Origin: a virus
Lineage: Duplodnaviria; Heunggongvirae; Uroviricota; Caudoviricetes
Length of the DNA: 64,000 nucleotides
IMG/VR virus record: IMGVR_UViG_3300025087_000051
Direction: 5' to 3' (one strand)
The notes under the pieces were generated by a model that had not been told where the DNA came from, did no database searches, and saw nothing but the letters and a program-made list of their open reading frames with translations. Of the stretch, positions 26,040 through 54,573 are shown piece by piece (the first letter of the stretch is position 1; each line of letters starts with the position of its first letter). A program made the translations under genes and the position numbers.

Positions 26040-27005
26040 ATGACAAATCTTATTCCGATTGATAATCAGCAAAATAATCAAATAAAGCTATACAAGGAAA
26101 CTTATTTTGATCTGGTTGATAGATTTCTCGCTGTCTCAGACATTGTTCCAAATTCTAAAAAATTCTACAAAAAAATATTGAGATATTGGTATGAATGGTG
26201 TGAGGAAAATAACGTTACTACTCCGACAAGGGAACACATATTGATTTATAAAAATTCACTAAATATTAAATCTCGATATACTCAGGCAGCTTACTTATCT
26301 GTTGTTGGAGAATTCTATAATTGGCTCGATATTGAAGGTATTTATAAAGATATTACAAAAGGAATCAAGGTTAAACATAGACAGGTCGATCAGCATACCA
26401 GAAGTAAATTAACTCTTGAAGAAATTCACGCACTGTTAAACAGTATCGACACCAGCACTTTTACAGGAAGTAGAGATTTTGCTATGATAAATCTTATGGT
26501 GCGAACTGGATTAAGAATGATTGAATTGAACAGAGCAGATGTGAACGACTTTTTCTTTTTAAATGATAGAAGGGTTTTGTACGTACAAGGCAAGGGACGT
26601 ATCCAGAAAGACGAGTTTGTGATTATTAATGAAGAAACGTACAAACCTTTGGAAAATTATATAAATACGAGACAATTTTTATCAGTTACCAATAACAATC
26701 AACCTCTTTTCGTTTCTCATAGTATTCGAGGTTCTGTAAACGATCCAAACAAGACGAATCGGAGGCTAACCGTAAACGCTATCAGATATATTGTGTGGAC
26801 AAGGCTAAAGCAAGCCGGTATTAAGCGAAAAGACATTGTGGGGCATTCGCTTAGACATACAACGGCAACACTCGCTATAGATGCTGGCGCTACCATAGAA
26901 GAGGTTCAAGCACTAATGAGACATAAAGACCCTCGAACTACCATGATTTATATTAAAGAAAGAAACAGGTTTAAAAATGCGGCAGAAGATAAGATAAAAA
27001 TTTAA
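26040..27005 (+). CDS. int: tyrosine recombinase / phage integrase
   Basis: C-terminal catalytic box GHSLRHTTAT...LMRHKDPRTTMIYIKE (R, HxxR, Y nucleophile). Confidence 0.9.
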   Translation: MTNLIPIDNQQNNQIKLYKETYFDLVDRFLAVSDIVPNSKKFYKKILRYWYEWCEENNVTTPTREHILIYKNSLNIKSRYTQAAYLSVVGEFYNWLDIEGIYKDITKGIKVKHRQVDQHTRSKLTLEEIHALLNSIDTSTFTGSRDFAMINLMVRTGLRMIELNRADVNDFFFLNDRRVLYVQGKGRIQKDEFVIINEETYKPLENYINTRQFLSVTNNNQPLFVSHSIRGSVNDPNKTNRRLTVNAIRYIVWTRLKQAGIKRKDIVGHSLRHTTATLAIDAGATIEEVQALMRHKDPRTTMIYIKERNRFKNAAEDKIKI

Positions 27006-27134: not shown

Positions 27135-27425
27135 ATGAAAATCAAATTTATATTATTATTTATTATCTTTTTCCTTTTAGGCTGTGAGGTTGGTGTTCAT
27201 GTTTGTGCCACGAGACCAGGAATTTATGAACTAAAAAGTGAAACATTTCCCAATGCACAAACCTATCGTTTTGATTCAACAGCAAAAGATAATATATTAT
27301 TTTGTGGTACGAATGAAATTGCACTTGAATTTACAGATTTAACAACTGGGAAAAGAATTAAACTGGAAGAAAACAATATGCGATATAGAGGTAAATTAAT
27401 ACTTTTAAAGGAAACATGCAAATGA
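27135..27425 (+). CDS. small lipoprotein
   Basis: MKIKFILLFIIFFLLGC lipobox. Confidence 0.45.
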   Translation: MKIKFILLFIIFFLLGCEVGVHVCATRPGIYELKSETFPNAQTYRFDSTAKDNILFCGTNEIALEFTDLTTGKRIKLEENNMRYRGKLILLKETCK

Positions 27426-27567: not shown

Positions 27568-28128
27568 ATGGAAAAAACAGTAACGATAGAATTAATTACT
27601 CCGATGCTGGGAACAATCCCAAAAAACAAAGAAATCTACGCCGATTTTATCGCAACGAAAAATCCCGCAGGTATAGATAATGAAGAAATACAGACTATTG
27701 AAGAAATTGAAGAAAAAGGCTGGACGGGATTTCATTCTGATGAACAAGGGCTGTTTGTTTATGATTATTTTATCAAAGGATTCCTTAAAAATGCTGGCAA
27801 TGTTTTGAAGGAAGAGCTTAAAATTAAAGCGTTAAGAAGCAAGATAAGTGATTTTCTTTTCGTAAAGCCTAGAAAAATCTACATTGGACAGAAAGTGGAC
27901 GGGGTTCTCGAAAGACCATTAAGAGGACAGACGGCACAAGGACAGCGAGTAACTCTCATACGGAGTGATTTTGTAAAAGAAGGAACAATGATTACCTTCC
28001 AGCTGAAATTATTGCCTCACAAAGAACTTACCTGGGAAGTGATAGATTCTTTGTGGATGTATGGAGAAGATCAAGGACTTGGACAATTTAGAAACGGTGG
28101 TTATGGTAGATTTAAAATTATTGCGTAA
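27568..28128 (+). CDS. hypothetical protein with RAMP/Cas6-like C-terminal glycine-rich loop (tentative)
   Basis: C-terminus GLGQFRNGGYGRFKIIA fits GhGxxxxxGhG + hydrophobic tail 3 aa before stop; 186 aa; no other Cas signature verified. Confidence 0.3.
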   Translation: MEKTVTIELITPMLGTIPKNKEIYADFIATKNPAGIDNEEIQTIEEIEEKGWTGFHSDEQGLFVYDYFIKGFLKNAGNVLKEELKIKALRSKISDFLFVKPRKIYIGQKVDGVLERPLRGQTAQGQRVTLIRSDFVKEGTMITFQLKLLPHKELTWEVIDSLWMYGEDQGLGQFRNGGYGRFKIIA

Positions 28129-28129
28129 T

Positions 28130-28490
28130 GGTACGGTGCTGTGGTGTTTGGTTTAGGTTTAGTACGATGAGGTAAAGTGCGGCAAAAGTAATGTGTCGTT
28201 TAGCGGGACGAAGTAATGGTCAGGCAAGGACAGGTCTTGTTTGGTAGTGTAATGGTTTGGTGTTGTGGCGTATGATTTAATGTAGCAAGGTAATAATAGT
28301 GTGTGGTTCGTCCTGGCAGGGTGATGGTTGGGTATAGTGCAGTGAAGTCCAGTAATGGTGTGGTAAAGCGATGTGGGGCTAGGGTTAGGTGCGGTAAAAT
28401 TCTATATGGTTTCAGTGTGGTGGTGTTATGTACGGTAGAATGGTGTGGTCGCGCAAGGTAATGGTAAGGTACGGTGCATTAGAAGAAGAA
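28130..28490 (+). repeat. C-depleted G/T-rich degenerate repeat tract, non-coding
   Basis: ~7% C on + strand vs genome; recurring RGTAATGGT, GGTAAAGYG, ACGGTGC motifs at irregular 19-88 nt spacing; stops in all frames. Confidence 0.6.
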
Positions 28491-28524
28491 AAAAGAAAAT
28501 TATTAACAGAACTAATACAAAACG

Positions 28525-28666
28525 GATAGATAGTAACTTGTCATCCAAAACGCAAGAACGTATCATAAGGTAAGCATTGCGTGATGCAGGGAGATACTAA
28601 AAAGAATTAGCCGGAAATAAACTAGAATAAAACCGGCTACGACTCTTTCAATAGTTACTATCTATC
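28525..28666 (+). repeat. inverted pair GATAGATAGTAAC / GTTACTATCTATC flanking ~115 bp upstream of 28685 CDS
   Basis: 13-nt perfect inverted repeat; contains GCCGG-18nt-CCGGC hairpin between. Confidence 0.4.
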
Positions 28667-28684
28667 TTTTTCATAAGAAAGAAG

Positions 28685-29161
28685 GTGGTTGTGATAGAAA
28701 AAATTTACAGATGTGATTTGTGCAACATACAACAAGAAAAACAAGGATGGAGAGATTGTCTCGATTATTTATTATCAAAAGTAAGTTTAATTGAAAATAA
28801 CATATTAAACAAGAACGAAACGATAGACAGGAAAGAAGTATCGACAAACACAGACGACATTCTGATTAACAAAATAAAAGAACTTTCAAAGAAATTGGTA
28901 GAAGATAATATTGCCTTTCCGATGGAAATGGATTATTTTTTAATCGAACAAGCAATGCTTCGGGGCGCATCCATAGCTTTTCAATTGCTAATGGAAAAAG
29001 AAACAGAATCAATAACAAGTGAAATAACAACAAAAAATGGACTTTTATACCGAAACGGTAAAATGATAGAATTACCGTACGCAGACGATGTGGCAAGAAA
29101 ACATGGATATATGTATGCGGAGCAACTGGTTCGTGCGCTCGAAAGTAAAAATAAAGAATAA
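28685..29161 (+). CDS. hypothetical protein
   Basis: 158-aa ORF, GAAGGTGG RBS, unusual start region. Confidence 0.45.
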   Translation: MVVIEKIYRCDLCNIQQEKQGWRDCLDYLLSKVSLIENNILNKNETIDRKEVSTNTDDILINKIKELSKKLVEDNIAFPMEMDYFLIEQAMLRGASIAFQLLMEKETESITSEITTKNGLLYRNGKMIELPYADDVARKHGYMYAEQLVRALESKNKE

Positions 29162-30252: not shown

Positions 30253-30696
30253 ATGAAACCATATCTAATACAAAGAGCAAAATTCCAGGATAATCCTAAT
30301 CGTAAAGGCATTGATTCAATCTTAGATTTTGATTACATGGGAAGCGCAGAATTTGAATTCGGAGCATTACCACAAAGCCTAAAAAGAATCAGAGAAAATA
30401 TATCTAACTATTGCATATCTTCATTTGATATAAATAACAAAAAAATCAGTATTTTTTATGATAACAAACTGATAGAAAGTCCCAAAGAATTATCAGAAAT
30501 TATAGAAGGTCTTGCAGATAATAAATTTTGTCTAAAAGAATATTGCGATTTTCAACACTTCATATATTTTAACCCACTCATGCTTAAATGTGATTTTTGG
30601 TGGGACATAGAAAATGATTATATGTTCTGGAAATACAATGAAGAATTTAATAATAAATTTATAAAATTAATAAAACCAGGAGGGAAAAATGGATGA
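30253..30696 (+). CDS. hypothetical protein
   Basis: 149-aa ORF, AAAGGAG RBS. Confidence 0.45.
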   Translation: MKPYLIQRAKFQDNPNRKGIDSILDFDYMGSAEFEFGALPQSLKRIRENISNYCISSFDINNKKISIFYDNKLIESPKELSEIIEGLADNKFCLKEYCDFQHFIYFNPLMLKCDFWWDIENDYMFWKYNEEFNNKFIKLIKPGGKNG

Positions 30697-31210
30697 TATT
30701 TTAAAAGCACTAAAGGATGGATTAGATCAATTACTAGAAGGCGATCAAGACAGTAAAGACAATACAGAATTAAAGCTACCCGATCCTGTAAAAATGAGTC
30801 TGAATCACGCTATCGCCTTAACAGATAAGTATGAATCACTGGACAAAAGATTGGATATATTAAAATTTTGGTTTGATTCAGAAAAAACCAGAATCGAAAA
30901 ACAGAAGGAATTTATCGAAAAATGTTGCGAAGGATTTATGTTAAATTACATGGAGCGGTGTGGATCGAAATCATTGATATTGCCGAATGGACATAAATTT
31001 GGATTAAGAAAATGTCCAGATTCAGTAGAAATCAAAGATGAAGAAAAAGCAATAGACTGGTGTAAAGAAAATCTAAAAGAGGCGTGTAAGGAAAAAATTA
31101 GCTTATTAAAAAAACCGATAATTGATTATGTAAAATCTACGGGTAGCTTACCGGCAGGTATTGAATTTATTAGTTCGGAATCGAAGGGGCTTTCTTTTTC
31201 GATAAGTTAA
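30689..31210 (+). CDS. coiled-coil protein (Gam-like end-binding protein is a weak possibility)
   Basis: 173 aa, N-terminal coiled coil; no verified motif. Confidence 0.4.
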   Translation: MDDILKALKDGLDQLLEGDQDSKDNTELKLPDPVKMSLNHAIALTDKYESLDKRLDILKFWFDSEKTRIEKQKEFIEKCCEGFMLNYMERCGSKSLILPNGHKFGLRKCPDSVEIKDEEKAIDWCKENLKEACKEKISLLKKPIIDYVKSTGSLPAGIEFISSESKGLSFSIS

Positions 31211-53263: not shown

Positions 53264-54070
53264 GTGGCTACAGTAAAATCTGAGAAAAGAGTTTCAACAT
53301 ATCATGGGATTGAAAACTTATTCACCCCTGATGTTTTTTTCAACTTGATGGGCTGGACAGACAGAGAATGTCATACGGAAAGAATAAGATATGCAATTAG
53401 TAATTTTCATTATGCAGCAGGAGAAAAATTATCTTTTATTTTTGGAACTGAAAAGTTTGGAAATATTACAAGGGCAATAACAAGTTTGGGTGTTTTGTCT
53501 TTGGCTAGGTTTCACAATATTACCAATGAACAGATAGAAAAAATCATAGAAGATAGTAAGGGGAAAGGTTTTGAATTATTGAAAAAAGAAATTGAGTATA
53601 TTTGTTCATGTAGAAATATACATGCAGATAAAATAAAAGAAAAATTAACCGATATTACAAGTTTGTATGGTGGTAATAAATATAATAATATTTTGCGTAC
53701 AATGCTGAACATGAATGCAAATGATAGTGATATGGAAAACAGAAAAACAATAAATATCAACGCATTCCAGTTTAATACTATTTGCGAAAAAGAATTGAAT
53801 GAAAATATGTATAAATTGCAAAGAAATAGCGAAAATTGCGTTGTGAATATTTATATATCTAAAATCGTAAGCCATATCAATAATAAAATAAGAACTAACT
53901 ATAGGCGAAACGATACAAAATCTGAAATATGTCGTGGAGCGCACGTTGCAGGTTTGTATATTGTTTCAAAATGGATAATAAATGGTACATTGCCAAAGTA
54001 CGATGAATATTATTCGGCAAGTTTATTGTCTGATATTAAAGATGTTGTCTATTCTAATATTAAAGGATGA
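53264..54070 (+). CDS. hypothetical protein (GTG start)
   Basis: 268-aa ORF; AAAGGAACGGTGATGTGGCTACA. Confidence 0.45.
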   Translation: MATVKSEKRVSTYHGIENLFTPDVFFNLMGWTDRECHTERIRYAISNFHYAAGEKLSFIFGTEKFGNITRAITSLGVLSLARFHNITNEQIEKIIEDSKGKGFELLKKEIEYICSCRNIHADKIKEKLTDITSLYGGNKYNNILRTMLNMNANDSDMENRKTININAFQFNTICEKELNENMYKLQRNSENCVVNIYISKIVSHINNKIRTNYRRNDTKSEICRGAHVAGLYIVSKWIINGTLPKYDEYYSASLLSDIKDVVYSNIKG

Positions 54071-54400
54071 AAATGGCTAAACGTCTTTATGTCTTTATGA
54101 CTTTATGTCTTTATGTCTTTATGGCTGTACAAAGGGATGGAAATCAAAAATTTTCATCCGTTTATATGGCTAAACGTCTTTATGTCTTTATGACTTTATG
54201 TCTATATGACCGAATGGTCAAATGTCTTTATGACTTTATGGCTAGTATAAAGGGATGCTAGAAACGTGTAACGTAGTAAGGAAAATTTTTTCCTGTGTTT
54301 TTGTTAAATAAGTTGATAATGGCTAAATGACTGTATGGCTGTATGACTATGTGGCTAAATGACTAAATGGCTAAATGACTAAAAAGAACGAGGTACTTAA
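54070..54400 (+). repeat. tandem/micro-satellite-like repeat array (iteron-like)
   Basis: 38-nt ATGGCTAAACGTCTTTATGTCTTTATGACTTTATGTCT exact duplicate at 54073 and 54166; 8-10-nt units (GTCTTTATG, ACTTTATG, GGCTAAATGAC x3-4). Confidence 0.7.
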
Positions 54401-54402
54401 AA

Positions 54403-54573
54403 ATGATAAATCCAAGTACAATGAGTAACGGTAAGCCAACATGCTGTCCCTTCTGTTTGAGACCTTACGTTGAGCTTGACGGCAAAATAGTACCGGAATG
54501 TCTTTGTGGATCGTACTTTACAGCTAAAGAATTATGCGGCAGGCATGGGGTGAAGAATTGTCCAAGATGTTAA
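54403..54573 (+). CDS. zinc-ribbon micro-protein
   Basis: 56 aa; CCPFC ... CLC ... CPRC. Confidence 0.35.
   Translation: MINPSTMSNGKPTCCPFCLRPYVELDGKIVPECLCGSYFTAKELCGRHGVKNCPRC

What the first reader, a model, noticed from the sequence alone, without database searches (positions are those of the whole stretch)
27568..28490. Small protein with Cas6/RAMP-like glycine-rich loop next to a 360-bp C-depleted GT-rich degenerate repeat tract
ORF 27568-28128 ends GLGQFRNGGYGRFKIIA, which fits the RAMP G-rich loop GhGxxxxxGhG placed ~4 residues from the C-terminus as in Cas6/Cas5. Immediately downstream is a non-coding tract with extreme strand asymmetry (G+T rich, ~7% C). It carries recurring RGTAATGGT / GGTAAAGYG / ACGGTGC motifs and telomere-like GGGGCTAGGGTTAGG. 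This is not a CRISPR array: no exact repeats and irregular spacing. It could be a structured or G-quadruplex-forming RNA, a processed repeat RNA, a protein-binding array or an origin. The co-location of an RNA-processing-like fold with an odd repeat locus, inside the int-proximal regulatory region, may represent an undescribed module.
Basis: partly seen in the sequence, partly recalled or inferred. Interest (0 to 1): 0.68.

Follow-up and report, generated by a model that had tools for sequence, protein, structure and literature searches.

The report
Phage VIPR locus: RAMP plus pentamer-guide array
The small protein is a minimal Cas7-like RAMP and the "GT-rich tract" after it is a hidden array of about 70 five-base G-Y-N-N-N units, which together match the phage-borne VIPR RNA-guided DNA-binding systems first described in 2026 preprints, so it is real and interesting but no longer undescribed.

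Summary
The ORF (27568-28128) and the G/T-rich, C-poor tract (28125-28483) both exist. The tract is not irregular. It is a strand-specific array of about 70 pentamers, G-Y-N-N-N. A 6-nt unit (consensus GYAANG, here GTAATG) interrupts it every 21-41 nt, mostly 26 or 31.

A period-5 G signal lies directly beside the gene in 75 of 79 distinct relatives. It is never seen inside the gene or 1.5 kb away. The conserved pyrimidine is T in AT-rich phages and C in GC-rich ones, so C depletion is local to this phage.

Array content is completely replaced between phages whose genes are 82-85% identical.

This fits VIPR (Vipr protein plus vrRNA; bioRxiv 10.64898/2026.04.26.720920 and .720927), in which a Vipr filament on a pentamer-repeat RNA binds double-stranded DNA of competing phages.

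This clade differs from the characterised type II in four ways: three variable positions per unit (YNNNG), short punctuated modules, no structured tail after each module and no conserved accessory gene.

I found no targets, and neither expression nor function was tested.

Verdict: new member of a known kind.

The parts
27568..28128 (+). vipr-like gene: 186-aa single-domain RAMP. Predicted order: beta1, a low-confidence helical insert (about residues 17-60), alpha1, beta2, a long beta-hairpin (112-136, candidate thumb), beta3, alpha2, the G-loop GLGQFRNGGYG (170-180) and beta4.
28125..28483 (+). Candidate vrRNA array of about 69 units of G-Y-N-N-N (Y is T in 92% of in-phase units here). It is arranged in 12 modules of 20-41 nt. 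The first GTAATG overlaps the TAA stop codon of the gene.
   Evidence: GT lag-5 periodicity z = 6.6. Module parse. It is the only such array on either strand of the 64-kb window. The RNA is unstructured, z = +0.76. Homology to the close relatives L054 and L058 stops near the end of the gene (window 28089 and 28117) and resumes in genes further downstream.
28125..28130 (+). 6-nt punctuation unit GTAATG. The same kind of unit starts at 28151 (GTTTAG), 28182 (GCAAAA), 28213, 28249, 28352 and 28458 (all GTAATG), 28290 (GTAATA), 28321 (GTGATG), 28378 (GCTAGG) and 28409 (GTTTCA). Each shifts the pentamer phase by +1 and closes a module.
   Evidence: Slip detection and consensus G-Y-A-A-N-G from 158 slips in 16 arrays. 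Among 421 slip spacings, 50% are 26 or 31 nt and 80% fall in the set 16, 21, 26, 31, 36, 41. Window parse.
28524..28673 (+). Long-stem multibranch RNA structure ending in a U-run, directly after the array. It may terminate the vipr-array transcript. Assignment is tentative.
   Evidence: RNA fold of 28476-28685 gives -44.9 kcal/mol, z = -5.06, with 0 of 200 shuffles as stable. Hairpin terminators follow the arrays in L001 and L003. The simple terminator scan found none here.
26040..27005 (+). Tyrosine integrase upstream (context only). It marks the locus as lying in the integration-proximal region of a temperate phage.
   Evidence: Pfam Phage_integrase E = 3e-24 and PHROG integrase E = 8e-35. 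In relative L054 the integrase gene lies immediately upstream of the vipr homologue.

Best explanation
This is a VIPR (Viral Interference Programmable Repeat) locus of a temperate phage. The 186-aa protein is a Vipr, a minimal single-RRM RAMP related to Cas7. The 355-nt tract after it is its vrRNA array.

Likely mechanism, by analogy with the characterised SUSP1 system:
- The gene and array are transcribed rightward.
- The array RNA is unstructured. One protein protomer binds each pentamer, and the invariant G-Y of each unit is flipped into protein pockets.
- The variable bases are displayed to pair, discontinuously, with double-stranded DNA of a competing phage or prophage, silencing it.

This clade differs from SUSP1 (type II). 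Only G2 and Y3 of the GGY motif are conserved, so three positions per unit vary (YNNNG). The array is cut into modules of 3-7 guide units by a 6-nt GYAANG unit. No accessory (vap) gene is conserved.

Shown here: fold, homology, array anatomy, co-conservation, co-orientation and hypervariability.

Inferred, not shown: transcription, RNP formation, DNA targeting, the biological role and the exact read-out rule.

For: 2. Homology to a proven Vipr. I located the SUSP1 locus in KT454805. Its 195-aa ORF is identical to PDB 36pp 'SUSP1 Vipr protein'. The profile of this family against the profile of the SUSP1 family gives probability 95.3%, E = 2.1e-8 over 118 collinear columns.

3. Pentamer array. 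GT lag-5 z = 6.6 in the window and 5.2-11.8 in six relatives. SUSP1's own vrRNAs look the same in kind, TATGG TAAGG TGTGG and so on.

4. Co-conservation. A period-5 G signal (z > 3) occurs in the 400 nt downstream in 71 of 79 distinct loci and upstream or downstream in 75 of 79. It occurs in 0 of 79 gene bodies and 0 of 75 controls 1.5 kb away. Arrays are always on the gene's strand.

5. The conserved positions are G and a pyrimidine. Y is T in 62% and C in 38% of 1747 units, and the T fraction tracks genome GC (Spearman -0.65). The other three positions have 1.90-1.98 bits of entropy.

6. Hypervariability. The genes are 82-85% identical at the nucleotide level to L054 and L058, but the arrays cannot be aligned.

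7. Pocket residues. SUSP1 W178 and R179, which hold G2 and Y3, align to F/W174 and the invariant R175. D177, which reads G1, aligns to an invariant Q173. This matches the loss of G1 conservation here.

8. Context. The element is a phage, the gene lies next to an integrase, there is no CRISPR array in 64 kb, and relatives are on viral contigs and MAG contigs.

9. The preprints describe YNNNG variants, staggered arrays and stand-alone vipr genes.
Against: - There is no RNA-seq or any other expression evidence for this locus.
- No natural target was found. Local all-against-all tests under 11 read-out rules gave no excess over shuffled guides. Two public scans gave only chance-level hits.
- In-phase runs are short, mostly 4-7 units, against 9-16 in the published description. 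There is no structured or pseudoknotted tail after each module.
- Sequence similarity to SUSP1 Vipr is detectable only profile-to-profile and not over the N-terminal 50 residues.
- I could not see the preprint's figures or data tables, so I cannot say which of its seven types, if any, this clade belongs to.
- The VIPR work itself is at preprint stage.
Confidence: 0.88

Rival explanations
1. The protein is a Cas6-like endoribonuclease that processes the repeat RNA into small RNAs with a non-guide role. Examples would be a protein sponge or an antitoxin, as in type III toxin-antitoxin systems (ToxIN).
Confidence: 0.05
2. The tract acts as double-stranded or single-stranded DNA, for example as iterons of a replication origin, a pac or cos-adjacent site, or a cluster of Chi-like sequences. 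The adjacent protein would be its DNA-binding partner.
For: The strand asymmetry and recurring short motifs resemble some origins. In L001 the locus lies just before a terminase small-subunit gene.
Against: The position in the phage genome is not conserved: next to the integrase here and in L054, next to the terminase in L001. The sequence is hypervariable apart from G-Y every 5 nt, unlike iterons or Chi. The array is always co-oriented with the gene and abuts its stop codon. The protein has an RNA-binding RAMP fold.
Confidence: 0.03
3. A phage-encoded Cas7 mimic acts as an anti-CRISPR. It would poison host type I, III or IV effector complexes, with the array acting as a decoy crRNA.
For: Phages are known to carry RNA anti-CRISPRs and Cas-like decoys (PMC10651486, listed). 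The fold is Cas7-like.
Against: The array has no CRISPR-repeat-like sequence or hairpins. The family occurs in phages of very diverse hosts, including WOR-3, Desulfobaccales, Clostridia and Bacteroidales, with the same G-Y pentamer grammar. That grammar would not mimic host-specific repeats.
Confidence: 0.03
4. The tract is a G-quadruplex-forming or otherwise structured regulatory RNA or DNA.
For: It is G-rich, and several two-tetrad G2 patterns are present.
Against: There is no motif of four runs of three or more G. The fold energy equals that of shuffles, z = +0.76. GC-rich relatives use GC-NNN units that do not keep G-runs. There is no Rfam match.
Confidence: 0.01

Closest known systems
VIPR type II of Escherichia phage SUSP1 and the Pseudomonas fulva prophage (Vipr plus vrRNA; bioRxiv 10.64898/2026.04.26.720920 and 10.64898/2026.04.26.720927; PDB 36pp)
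   Same: - A phage-encoded single-domain RAMP of about 190 aa with a C-terminal G-loop (GxGxWR..GRF there, GLGQFR..GYGRF here).
- Flanking, co-oriented, unstructured arrays of 5-nt units with an invariant G and pyrimidine and hypervariable positions.
- No CRISPR array and no cas genes among the neighbours scanned.
- Profile-profile homology at probability 95%.
- The residues aligned to the G2 and Y3 contacts W178 and R179 are kept (F/W174, R175).
   Different: - The units are G-Y-N-N-N (YNNNG) with three fully variable positions. The G1-equivalent position is G in only 28% of units, against 76% in SUSP1 by the same count.
- The G1-reading D177 is an invariant Q here.
- In-phase runs are 4-7 units instead of 9-16. 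They are separated by a 6-nt GYAANG unit rather than by a structured, pseudoknotted tail about 40 nt long.
- The array is one continuous 355-nt block.
- No vap gene is conserved across 49 loci.
- The read-out rule for this unit type is not known to me.
Other VIPR types and architectures named in the preprint (YNNNG, NNNGG and NNNNG repeats; 'staggered arrays with overlapping vrRNAs')
   Same: The preprint states that some types use YNNNG repeats. It also says that staggered arrays exist in which one vrRNA ends where the next starts, with 1-nt offsets. This fits the +1 phase slips seen here every 21-36 nt.
   Different: I could not view the figures or data tables. Identity with a particular type is therefore unverified, and staggered arrays are not among the architectures the preprint reports as confirmed by small-RNA sequencing. 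The GYAANG punctuation and the 26/31-nt module length are my own observations.
Class 1 CRISPR backbone subunits (Cas7 family: Csm3, Cmr4, type VII Cas7, Csf2)
   Different: - No CRISPR repeats or spacers, and no adaptation genes seen.
- A 5-nt rather than 6-nt period.
- The guide information is interleaved inside the repeats rather than held in a contiguous spacer.
- A single protein instead of a multi-subunit complex.
- It is carried by phages.
Type III toxin-antitoxin RNA arrays (ToxI/ToxN)
   Same: A short-repeat non-coding RNA array adjacent to a small protein gene on mobile elements.
   Different: ToxI repeats are near-identical 34-36-nt units placed upstream of an endoribonuclease toxin of a different fold. 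Here the units are 5 nt, hypervariable and placed downstream of a RAMP.

Membership tests
VIPR (Vipr protein plus vrRNA) | Minimal single-domain protein of about 20 kDa with no second RRM, and no CRISPR context. | tested here: met
   The protein is 186 aa. There is no CRISPR-like repeat array in the 64-kb window. No Cas family was found among 10 neighbouring ORFs. The remaining ORFs of the window were not scanned for Cas domains.
VIPR (Vipr protein plus vrRNA) | Sequence homology to an experimentally characterised Vipr. | tested here: met
   Family profile against SUSP1-family profile gives hhalign probability 95.3%, E = 2.1e-8, residues 53-184 against 56-187. The SUSP1 ORF used is identical to PDB 36pp 'SUSP1 Vipr protein'. 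Pairwise BLASTP is not significant.
VIPR (Vipr protein plus vrRNA) | An adjacent non-coding array of at least 4 tandem pentamers of YNNGG, or of the variants NNNGG, YNNNG or NNNNG. | tested here: met
   About 69 G-Y-N-N-N units lie at 28125-28483, with in-phase runs of 4-7. The strict YNNGG form occurs only in runs of up to 3 units here, so the match is to the YNNNG variant.
VIPR (Vipr protein plus vrRNA) | Conserved repeat positions with hypervariable N positions across relatives. | tested here: met
   In 1747 units from 49 loci, G is 100% by selection, Y is T or C, and the three N positions have 1.90-1.98 bits of entropy. Arrays cannot be aligned between phages whose genes are 82-85% identical. 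A block shared by L054 and L058 differs at two Y-to-Y positions and one N position.
VIPR (Vipr protein plus vrRNA) | An invariant structured 3' tail capping each vrRNA (a pseudoknot in the SUSP1 clade). | tested here: not met
   Modules end in a 6-nt GYAANG unit, not a structured tail. The array RNA shows no excess structure. Only one structured element follows the whole array, at 28524-28673. The preprint describes other architectures (staggered, ribozyme-interspersed, single vrRNA), so this feature defines type II rather than VIPR as a whole.
VIPR (Vipr protein plus vrRNA) | An accessory vap gene next to vipr. | tested here: not met
   No protein family other than Vipr is shared by 6 or more of 49 distinct loci within about 4 kb. 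The neighbours here have no informative domain. The preprint says 'typically' and notes stand-alone genes, so this is not strictly defining.
VIPR (Vipr protein plus vrRNA) | Mostly carried by phages and prophages. | tested here: met
   The window is a phage with an integrase, a Mu Gam-like gene and all genes on one strand. 50 relatives are on IMG/VR viral contigs. 35 are on MAG contigs of diverse bacteria.
VIPR (Vipr protein plus vrRNA) | vrRNAs are expressed and co-purify with the protein. | not testable with these tools
   Needs small-RNA sequencing and a pull-down.
VIPR (Vipr protein plus vrRNA) | Guides match DNA targets by a gapped rule (xNN for type II), typically in competing phages. 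| tested here: inconclusive
   Eleven candidate rules were tested with guides from 49 loci against about 0.5 Mb of related phage DNA and the 64-kb window, with no excess over shuffled guides. Two exact scans of IMG/VR gave 4 chance-like hits and 0 hits. The tests were underpowered.
CRISPR-Cas | An array of near-identical 23-50-nt direct repeats separated by unique spacers. | tested here: not met
   No such repeats were found in the tract or elsewhere in the window.
CRISPR-Cas | Multiple cas genes (adaptation and effector modules) at the locus. | tested here: not met
   The locus has a single RAMP gene. The neighbours have no Cas domains, and no conserved neighbour exists in 49 loci.
Type III toxin-antitoxin (ToxIN-like) | Tandem near-exact repeats of about 36 nt upstream of an endoribonuclease toxin. 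| tested here: not met
   Tandem Repeats Finder found nothing. The units are 5 nt and variable. The array lies downstream of a RAMP-fold protein.

The most novel reading that the evidence does not exclude
This large clade (2207 clusters at 50% identity) may be a VIPR variant with its own recognition code. It would sequester only two bases per pentamer (G-Y), display three variable bases, and divide the array into mini-guides of 3-7 units bounded by GYAANG. It could therefore read DNA with a different periodicity from the published xNN rule, for example three contiguous bases per unit or xNNN. It might also mature its guides by a phase-slip or staggered mechanism not yet shown experimentally.
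Probability: 0.3. Interest if true: 0.75.

Novelty: new member of a known kind. Interest (0 to 1): 0.55.

Why it matters
VIPR is a very recent discovery. It is a minimal, PAM-free, RNA-guided DNA-binding system carried by phages and proposed to be ancestral to CRISPR RAMPs.

This window adds a clean example from an AT-rich temperate phage whose closest relatives are in groundwater metagenome assemblies. The comparative work around it shows several things:
- The clade is very large.
- The protein-array link is almost universal (75 of 79 loci).
- C depletion is only the AT-rich version of a G-pyrimidine rule.
- This clade has three variable positions per unit, regular 26/31-nt modules and no accessory gene.

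These features bear on how general the published two-base, one-skip code is. They give concrete constructs for testing a possibly different code. They also show that a sequence-only reader can spot such loci from composition alone.

Tried and rejected
1. Family libraries. Pfam, NCBIfam and PHROGs gave no meaningful hit for the protein. Only the PADLOC Csm3 model matched, at E = 0.0017.
2. Rfam, at gathering thresholds and permissive thresholds, found no RNA family in the tract. A weak DnaX frameshift hit at 28585-28641 is chance. No tRNA or tmRNA genes were found.
3. Tandem Repeats Finder and whole-tract Fourier analysis missed the periodicity because the phase slips every 21-36 nt. Lag statistics on the GT dinucleotide revealed it.
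4. Comparisons with SUSP1 Vipr were mostly weak. Direct BLASTP and the family HMM against the single sequence found only the G-loop region, and hhalign of the 18-sequence profile gave probability 74%. Profile against profile was needed.
5. The AFDB50 Foldseek library was not available. I therefore could not check whether the preprint's seed UniProt entries are structural neighbours.
6. Target prediction failed. I tried windows of 5 or 9 units under rules ab, bc and abc with 0-3 skipped bases. Targets were the window and 49 related loci, with shuffled-guide controls, and there was no signal. One script used too permissive a parse and crashed before the bc and abc rules ran.
7. IMG/VR scans were uninformative. 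The contiguous reading of module 28219-28248 gave 4 hits in unrelated contigs, about the number expected by chance. The contiguous reading of module 28255-28289 gave 0 hits.
8. A conserved neighbour (vap) search found none.
9. I considered and rejected G-quadruplex, coding potential of the tract (only a spurious 52-aa ORF at 28303-28461), origin or Chi cluster, and a Rho-utilisation site on the opposite strand. The reasons are the strand-specific G-Y grammar, the co-orientation with the gene and the hypervariability.

Full report
**1. What is in the sequence**

ORF 27568..28128 (+) encodes 186 aa ending GLGQFRNGGYGRFKIIA. The next 360 nt are G 37%, T 31%, A 23% and C 8.8%, with GC skew about +0.62. 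All genes in the 64-kb window lie on the + strand. A tyrosine integrase sits at 26040..27005 and a Mu Gam-like gene at 30689..31210, so this is a temperate phage. The window has no tRNA genes, no Rfam family and no CRISPR-like array.

**2. The protein**

Pfam, NCBIfam and PHROGs give nothing useful. The PADLOC Csm3 model matches residues 88-183 at E = 0.0017.

The family is large and unnamed. The word-indexed search returned 676 hits, and the full profile search found 2207 clusters at 50% identity with E <= 0.001.

An AlphaFold2 model built from an 18-sequence alignment has pLDDT 77.9 and pTM 0.71. Its predicted order is beta1, a poorly predicted helical insert, alpha1, beta2, a long beta-hairpin (112-136), beta3, alpha2, the glycine-rich loop (170-180) and beta4.

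**3. The tract is a pentamer array**

Tandem Repeats Finder and a whole-tract Fourier analysis see nothing. The GT dinucleotide, however, recurs at lags 5, 10 and 15, with z = 6.6, 3.5 and 3.1 against dinucleotide shuffles. It is depleted at lags 4, 9 and 14. The same pattern holds in six relatives, with lag-5 z of 5.2-11.8, and is absent from two coding controls.

A dynamic-programming parse reads 28125-28483 as about 69 units of G-T/C-N-N-N.

The phase advances by +1 at 6-nt units. Among 421 slip spacings, 50% are 26 or 31 nt and 80% fall in the set 16, 21, 26, 31, 36, 41. Lags 26 and 31 are nearly as populated as lag 5.

The window array has 12 such modules. The RNA has no more structure than shuffles, z = +0.76. 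It has no canonical G-quadruplex motif. A strongly structured element (z = -5.06) ending in a U-run follows at 28524-28673.

**4. Co-conservation**

Three relatives on viral contigs, 40-64% identical, all carry a similar tract after the stop codon. I then collected 50 IMG/VR loci, 8 contigs encoding near-identical proteins from groundwater and other metagenome assemblies, and 35 loci from bacterial MAGs.

Across 79 distinct loci the period-5 G signal gave the following counts:

| Region tested | Loci with z > 3 |
|---|---|
| 400 nt downstream of the gene | 71 of 79 |
| Upstream or downstream | 75 of 79 |
| Gene body | 0 of 79 |
| Control 1.5 kb downstream | 0 of 75 |

- **Orientation.** Arrays are on the gene's strand.
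- **Base composition.** In GC-rich phages the units are GC-NNN instead of GT-NNN. Over 1747 in-phase units Y is T in 62% and C in 38%, and the T fraction falls with genome GC (Spearman -0.65). C depletion is thus a by-product of an AT-rich genome. The rule is 'G, pyrimidine, three free bases', with 1.90-1.98 bits of entropy at each free position.
- **A looser subclade.** In a distant gut Clostridia subclade the pyrimidine is less strict, although the period-5 G remains.
- **No accessory gene.** No neighbouring protein family is conserved.
- **Array turnover.** Phages L054 and L058 have genes 82-85% identical to the window gene at the nucleotide level. Homology stops near the end of the gene and resumes in genes further downstream. 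L054 and L058 share one 83-nt block in which two of the three substitutions are T/C exchanges at the Y position.

**5. Identification**

A literature search found two 2026 bioRxiv preprints.

- VIPR has a phage-borne minimal RAMP (Vipr) plus vrRNAs made of 9-16 YNNGG pentamers and a 3' tail.
- Variant repeats are NNNGG, YNNNG and NNNNG.
- Alternative architectures include 'staggered arrays' with 1-nt offsets.
- Seven types are defined.
- Accessory vap genes are usual but not universal.
- Targets lie in competing phages and are read by a two-base, one-skip rule.

The companion paper (10.64898/2026.04.26.720927) shows the structural basis:
- One protomer binds each repeat.
- G1 is read by H17 and D177.
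- G2 is held by the thumb residue R138 and by W178.
- Y3 sits in a pocket that includes R179.
- N4 and N5 pair with DNA.

I found the SUSP1 locus in KT454805. It has ORFs of 195 aa and 146 aa flanked by YNNGG arrays. The 195-aa protein is identical to PDB 36pp 'SUSP1 Vipr protein'.

Pairwise similarity to the window protein is nil. A profile of 247 family members against a profile of the SUSP1 family gives hhalign probability 95.3%, E = 2.1e-8, collinear over residues 53-184 against 56-187.

In that alignment W178 maps to F174 (W in some relatives), R179 maps to the invariant R175 and D177 maps to the invariant Q173. The pockets for G2 and Y3 look conserved while the G1 reader is changed. This agrees with the array, where the G1-equivalent position is G in only 28% of units against 76% in SUSP1. 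This residue-level reading is an inference from an alignment, not a structure.

**6. Mechanism**

What is shown here is limited to sequence-level evidence:
- a Cas7-like RAMP homologous to Vipr;
- an adjacent, co-oriented, unstructured pentamer array;
- invariant G-Y and hypervariable remaining positions;
- near-universal linkage of gene and array;
- a phage context.

The rest is inferred from the SUSP1 work. The array would be transcribed, possibly with the gene, and cut or bounded at the GYAANG units. Protomers would polymerise one per pentamer, and the variable bases would recognise double-stranded DNA of rival phages or prophages and repress it. The position next to the integrase suits expression from the prophage.

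How many of the three variable bases are read, and with what spacing on the target, is unknown to me.

**7. Target search**

All attempts were negative or underpowered. Guides from the window and from relatives were tested against the window and about 0.5 Mb of related phage DNA under eleven rules, and showed no excess over shuffled guides. Exact IMG/VR scans with two modules read contiguously gave four unrelated hits, roughly the chance number, and none.

**8. Novelty and verdict**

The kind of system has since been described, including YNNNG and staggered variants.

I could not access the preprint's figures or tables, so I cannot say whether this exact clade and its 26/31-nt GYAANG-punctuated modules are already catalogued. 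I rate it a new member of a known kind.

There is a fair chance (about 0.3) that the clade uses a variant code worth testing. Overall confidence that this is a VIPR-type locus is 0.88. Confidence in the specific biological role, silencing of competing phages, is lower at about 0.6, because it rests on analogy.

Noticed in passing
window 54057-54386: Three intergenic blocks of 8-nt tandem repeats (ATGTCTTT, ATGACTTT, ATGGCTAA and similar, 16 or more copies). They lie between ORF 53264..54070 and a small Cys-rich ORF starting near 54404. They look iteron-like and could be an origin or a regulator-binding array.
   Followed up: partly
window 28524-28673: A 150-nt RNA structure with a 15-bp closing stem, inner hairpins and a U-run (z = -5.06) lies right after the pentamer array. 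It may be a terminator or an unrecognised RNA element. It is not conserved in L054.
   Followed up: partly
L054 3125-3207 and L058 1216-1298: Two related groundwater phages share one 83-nt stretch of their otherwise different arrays at 87% identity. Two of the three differences inside the shared modules are T/C swaps at the pyrimidine position. This resembles shared spacers between related CRISPR arrays.
   Followed up: partly
L007 4398-4835 and 5563-5767; L002/L040, L016, L077, L087, L096: Some relatives carry pentamer arrays both upstream and downstream of the gene, as SUSP1 does. A few (L014, L051, L084, L097) have them only upstream.
   Followed up: partly
L066-L093 (gut Clostridia MAG contigs, 34-41% identity): In this subclade the position after the periodic G is often A as well as C or T (for example GCAAA GGAAT, GAATG). 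The strict G-Y detector finds arrays in only 19 of 32 loci, although the period-5 G signal is strong (z 5-12). This may be the NNNNG-type consensus.
   Followed up: partly
L002 4001-4729 (IMGVR_UViG_3300033388_002660): This homologue has an insertion of about 45 aa between the beta2 region and the candidate thumb (alignment columns 135-180). The G-loop is kept and arrays lie on both sides.
   Followed up: no
window 27135-27425: A 96-aa ORF with a lipoprotein-like signal (LLGC) lies between the integrase and the vipr gene. It is absent from L054, where the integrase directly precedes vipr. It looks like a moron-like insertion.
   Followed up: no
L012/L013 5588-5974: In GC-rich relatives the array reads GC-NNN. 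Because GC is its own reverse complement, it scores as periodic on both strands. A recurring GCGCAGCTACGGCAC motif marks the module ends.
   Followed up: no
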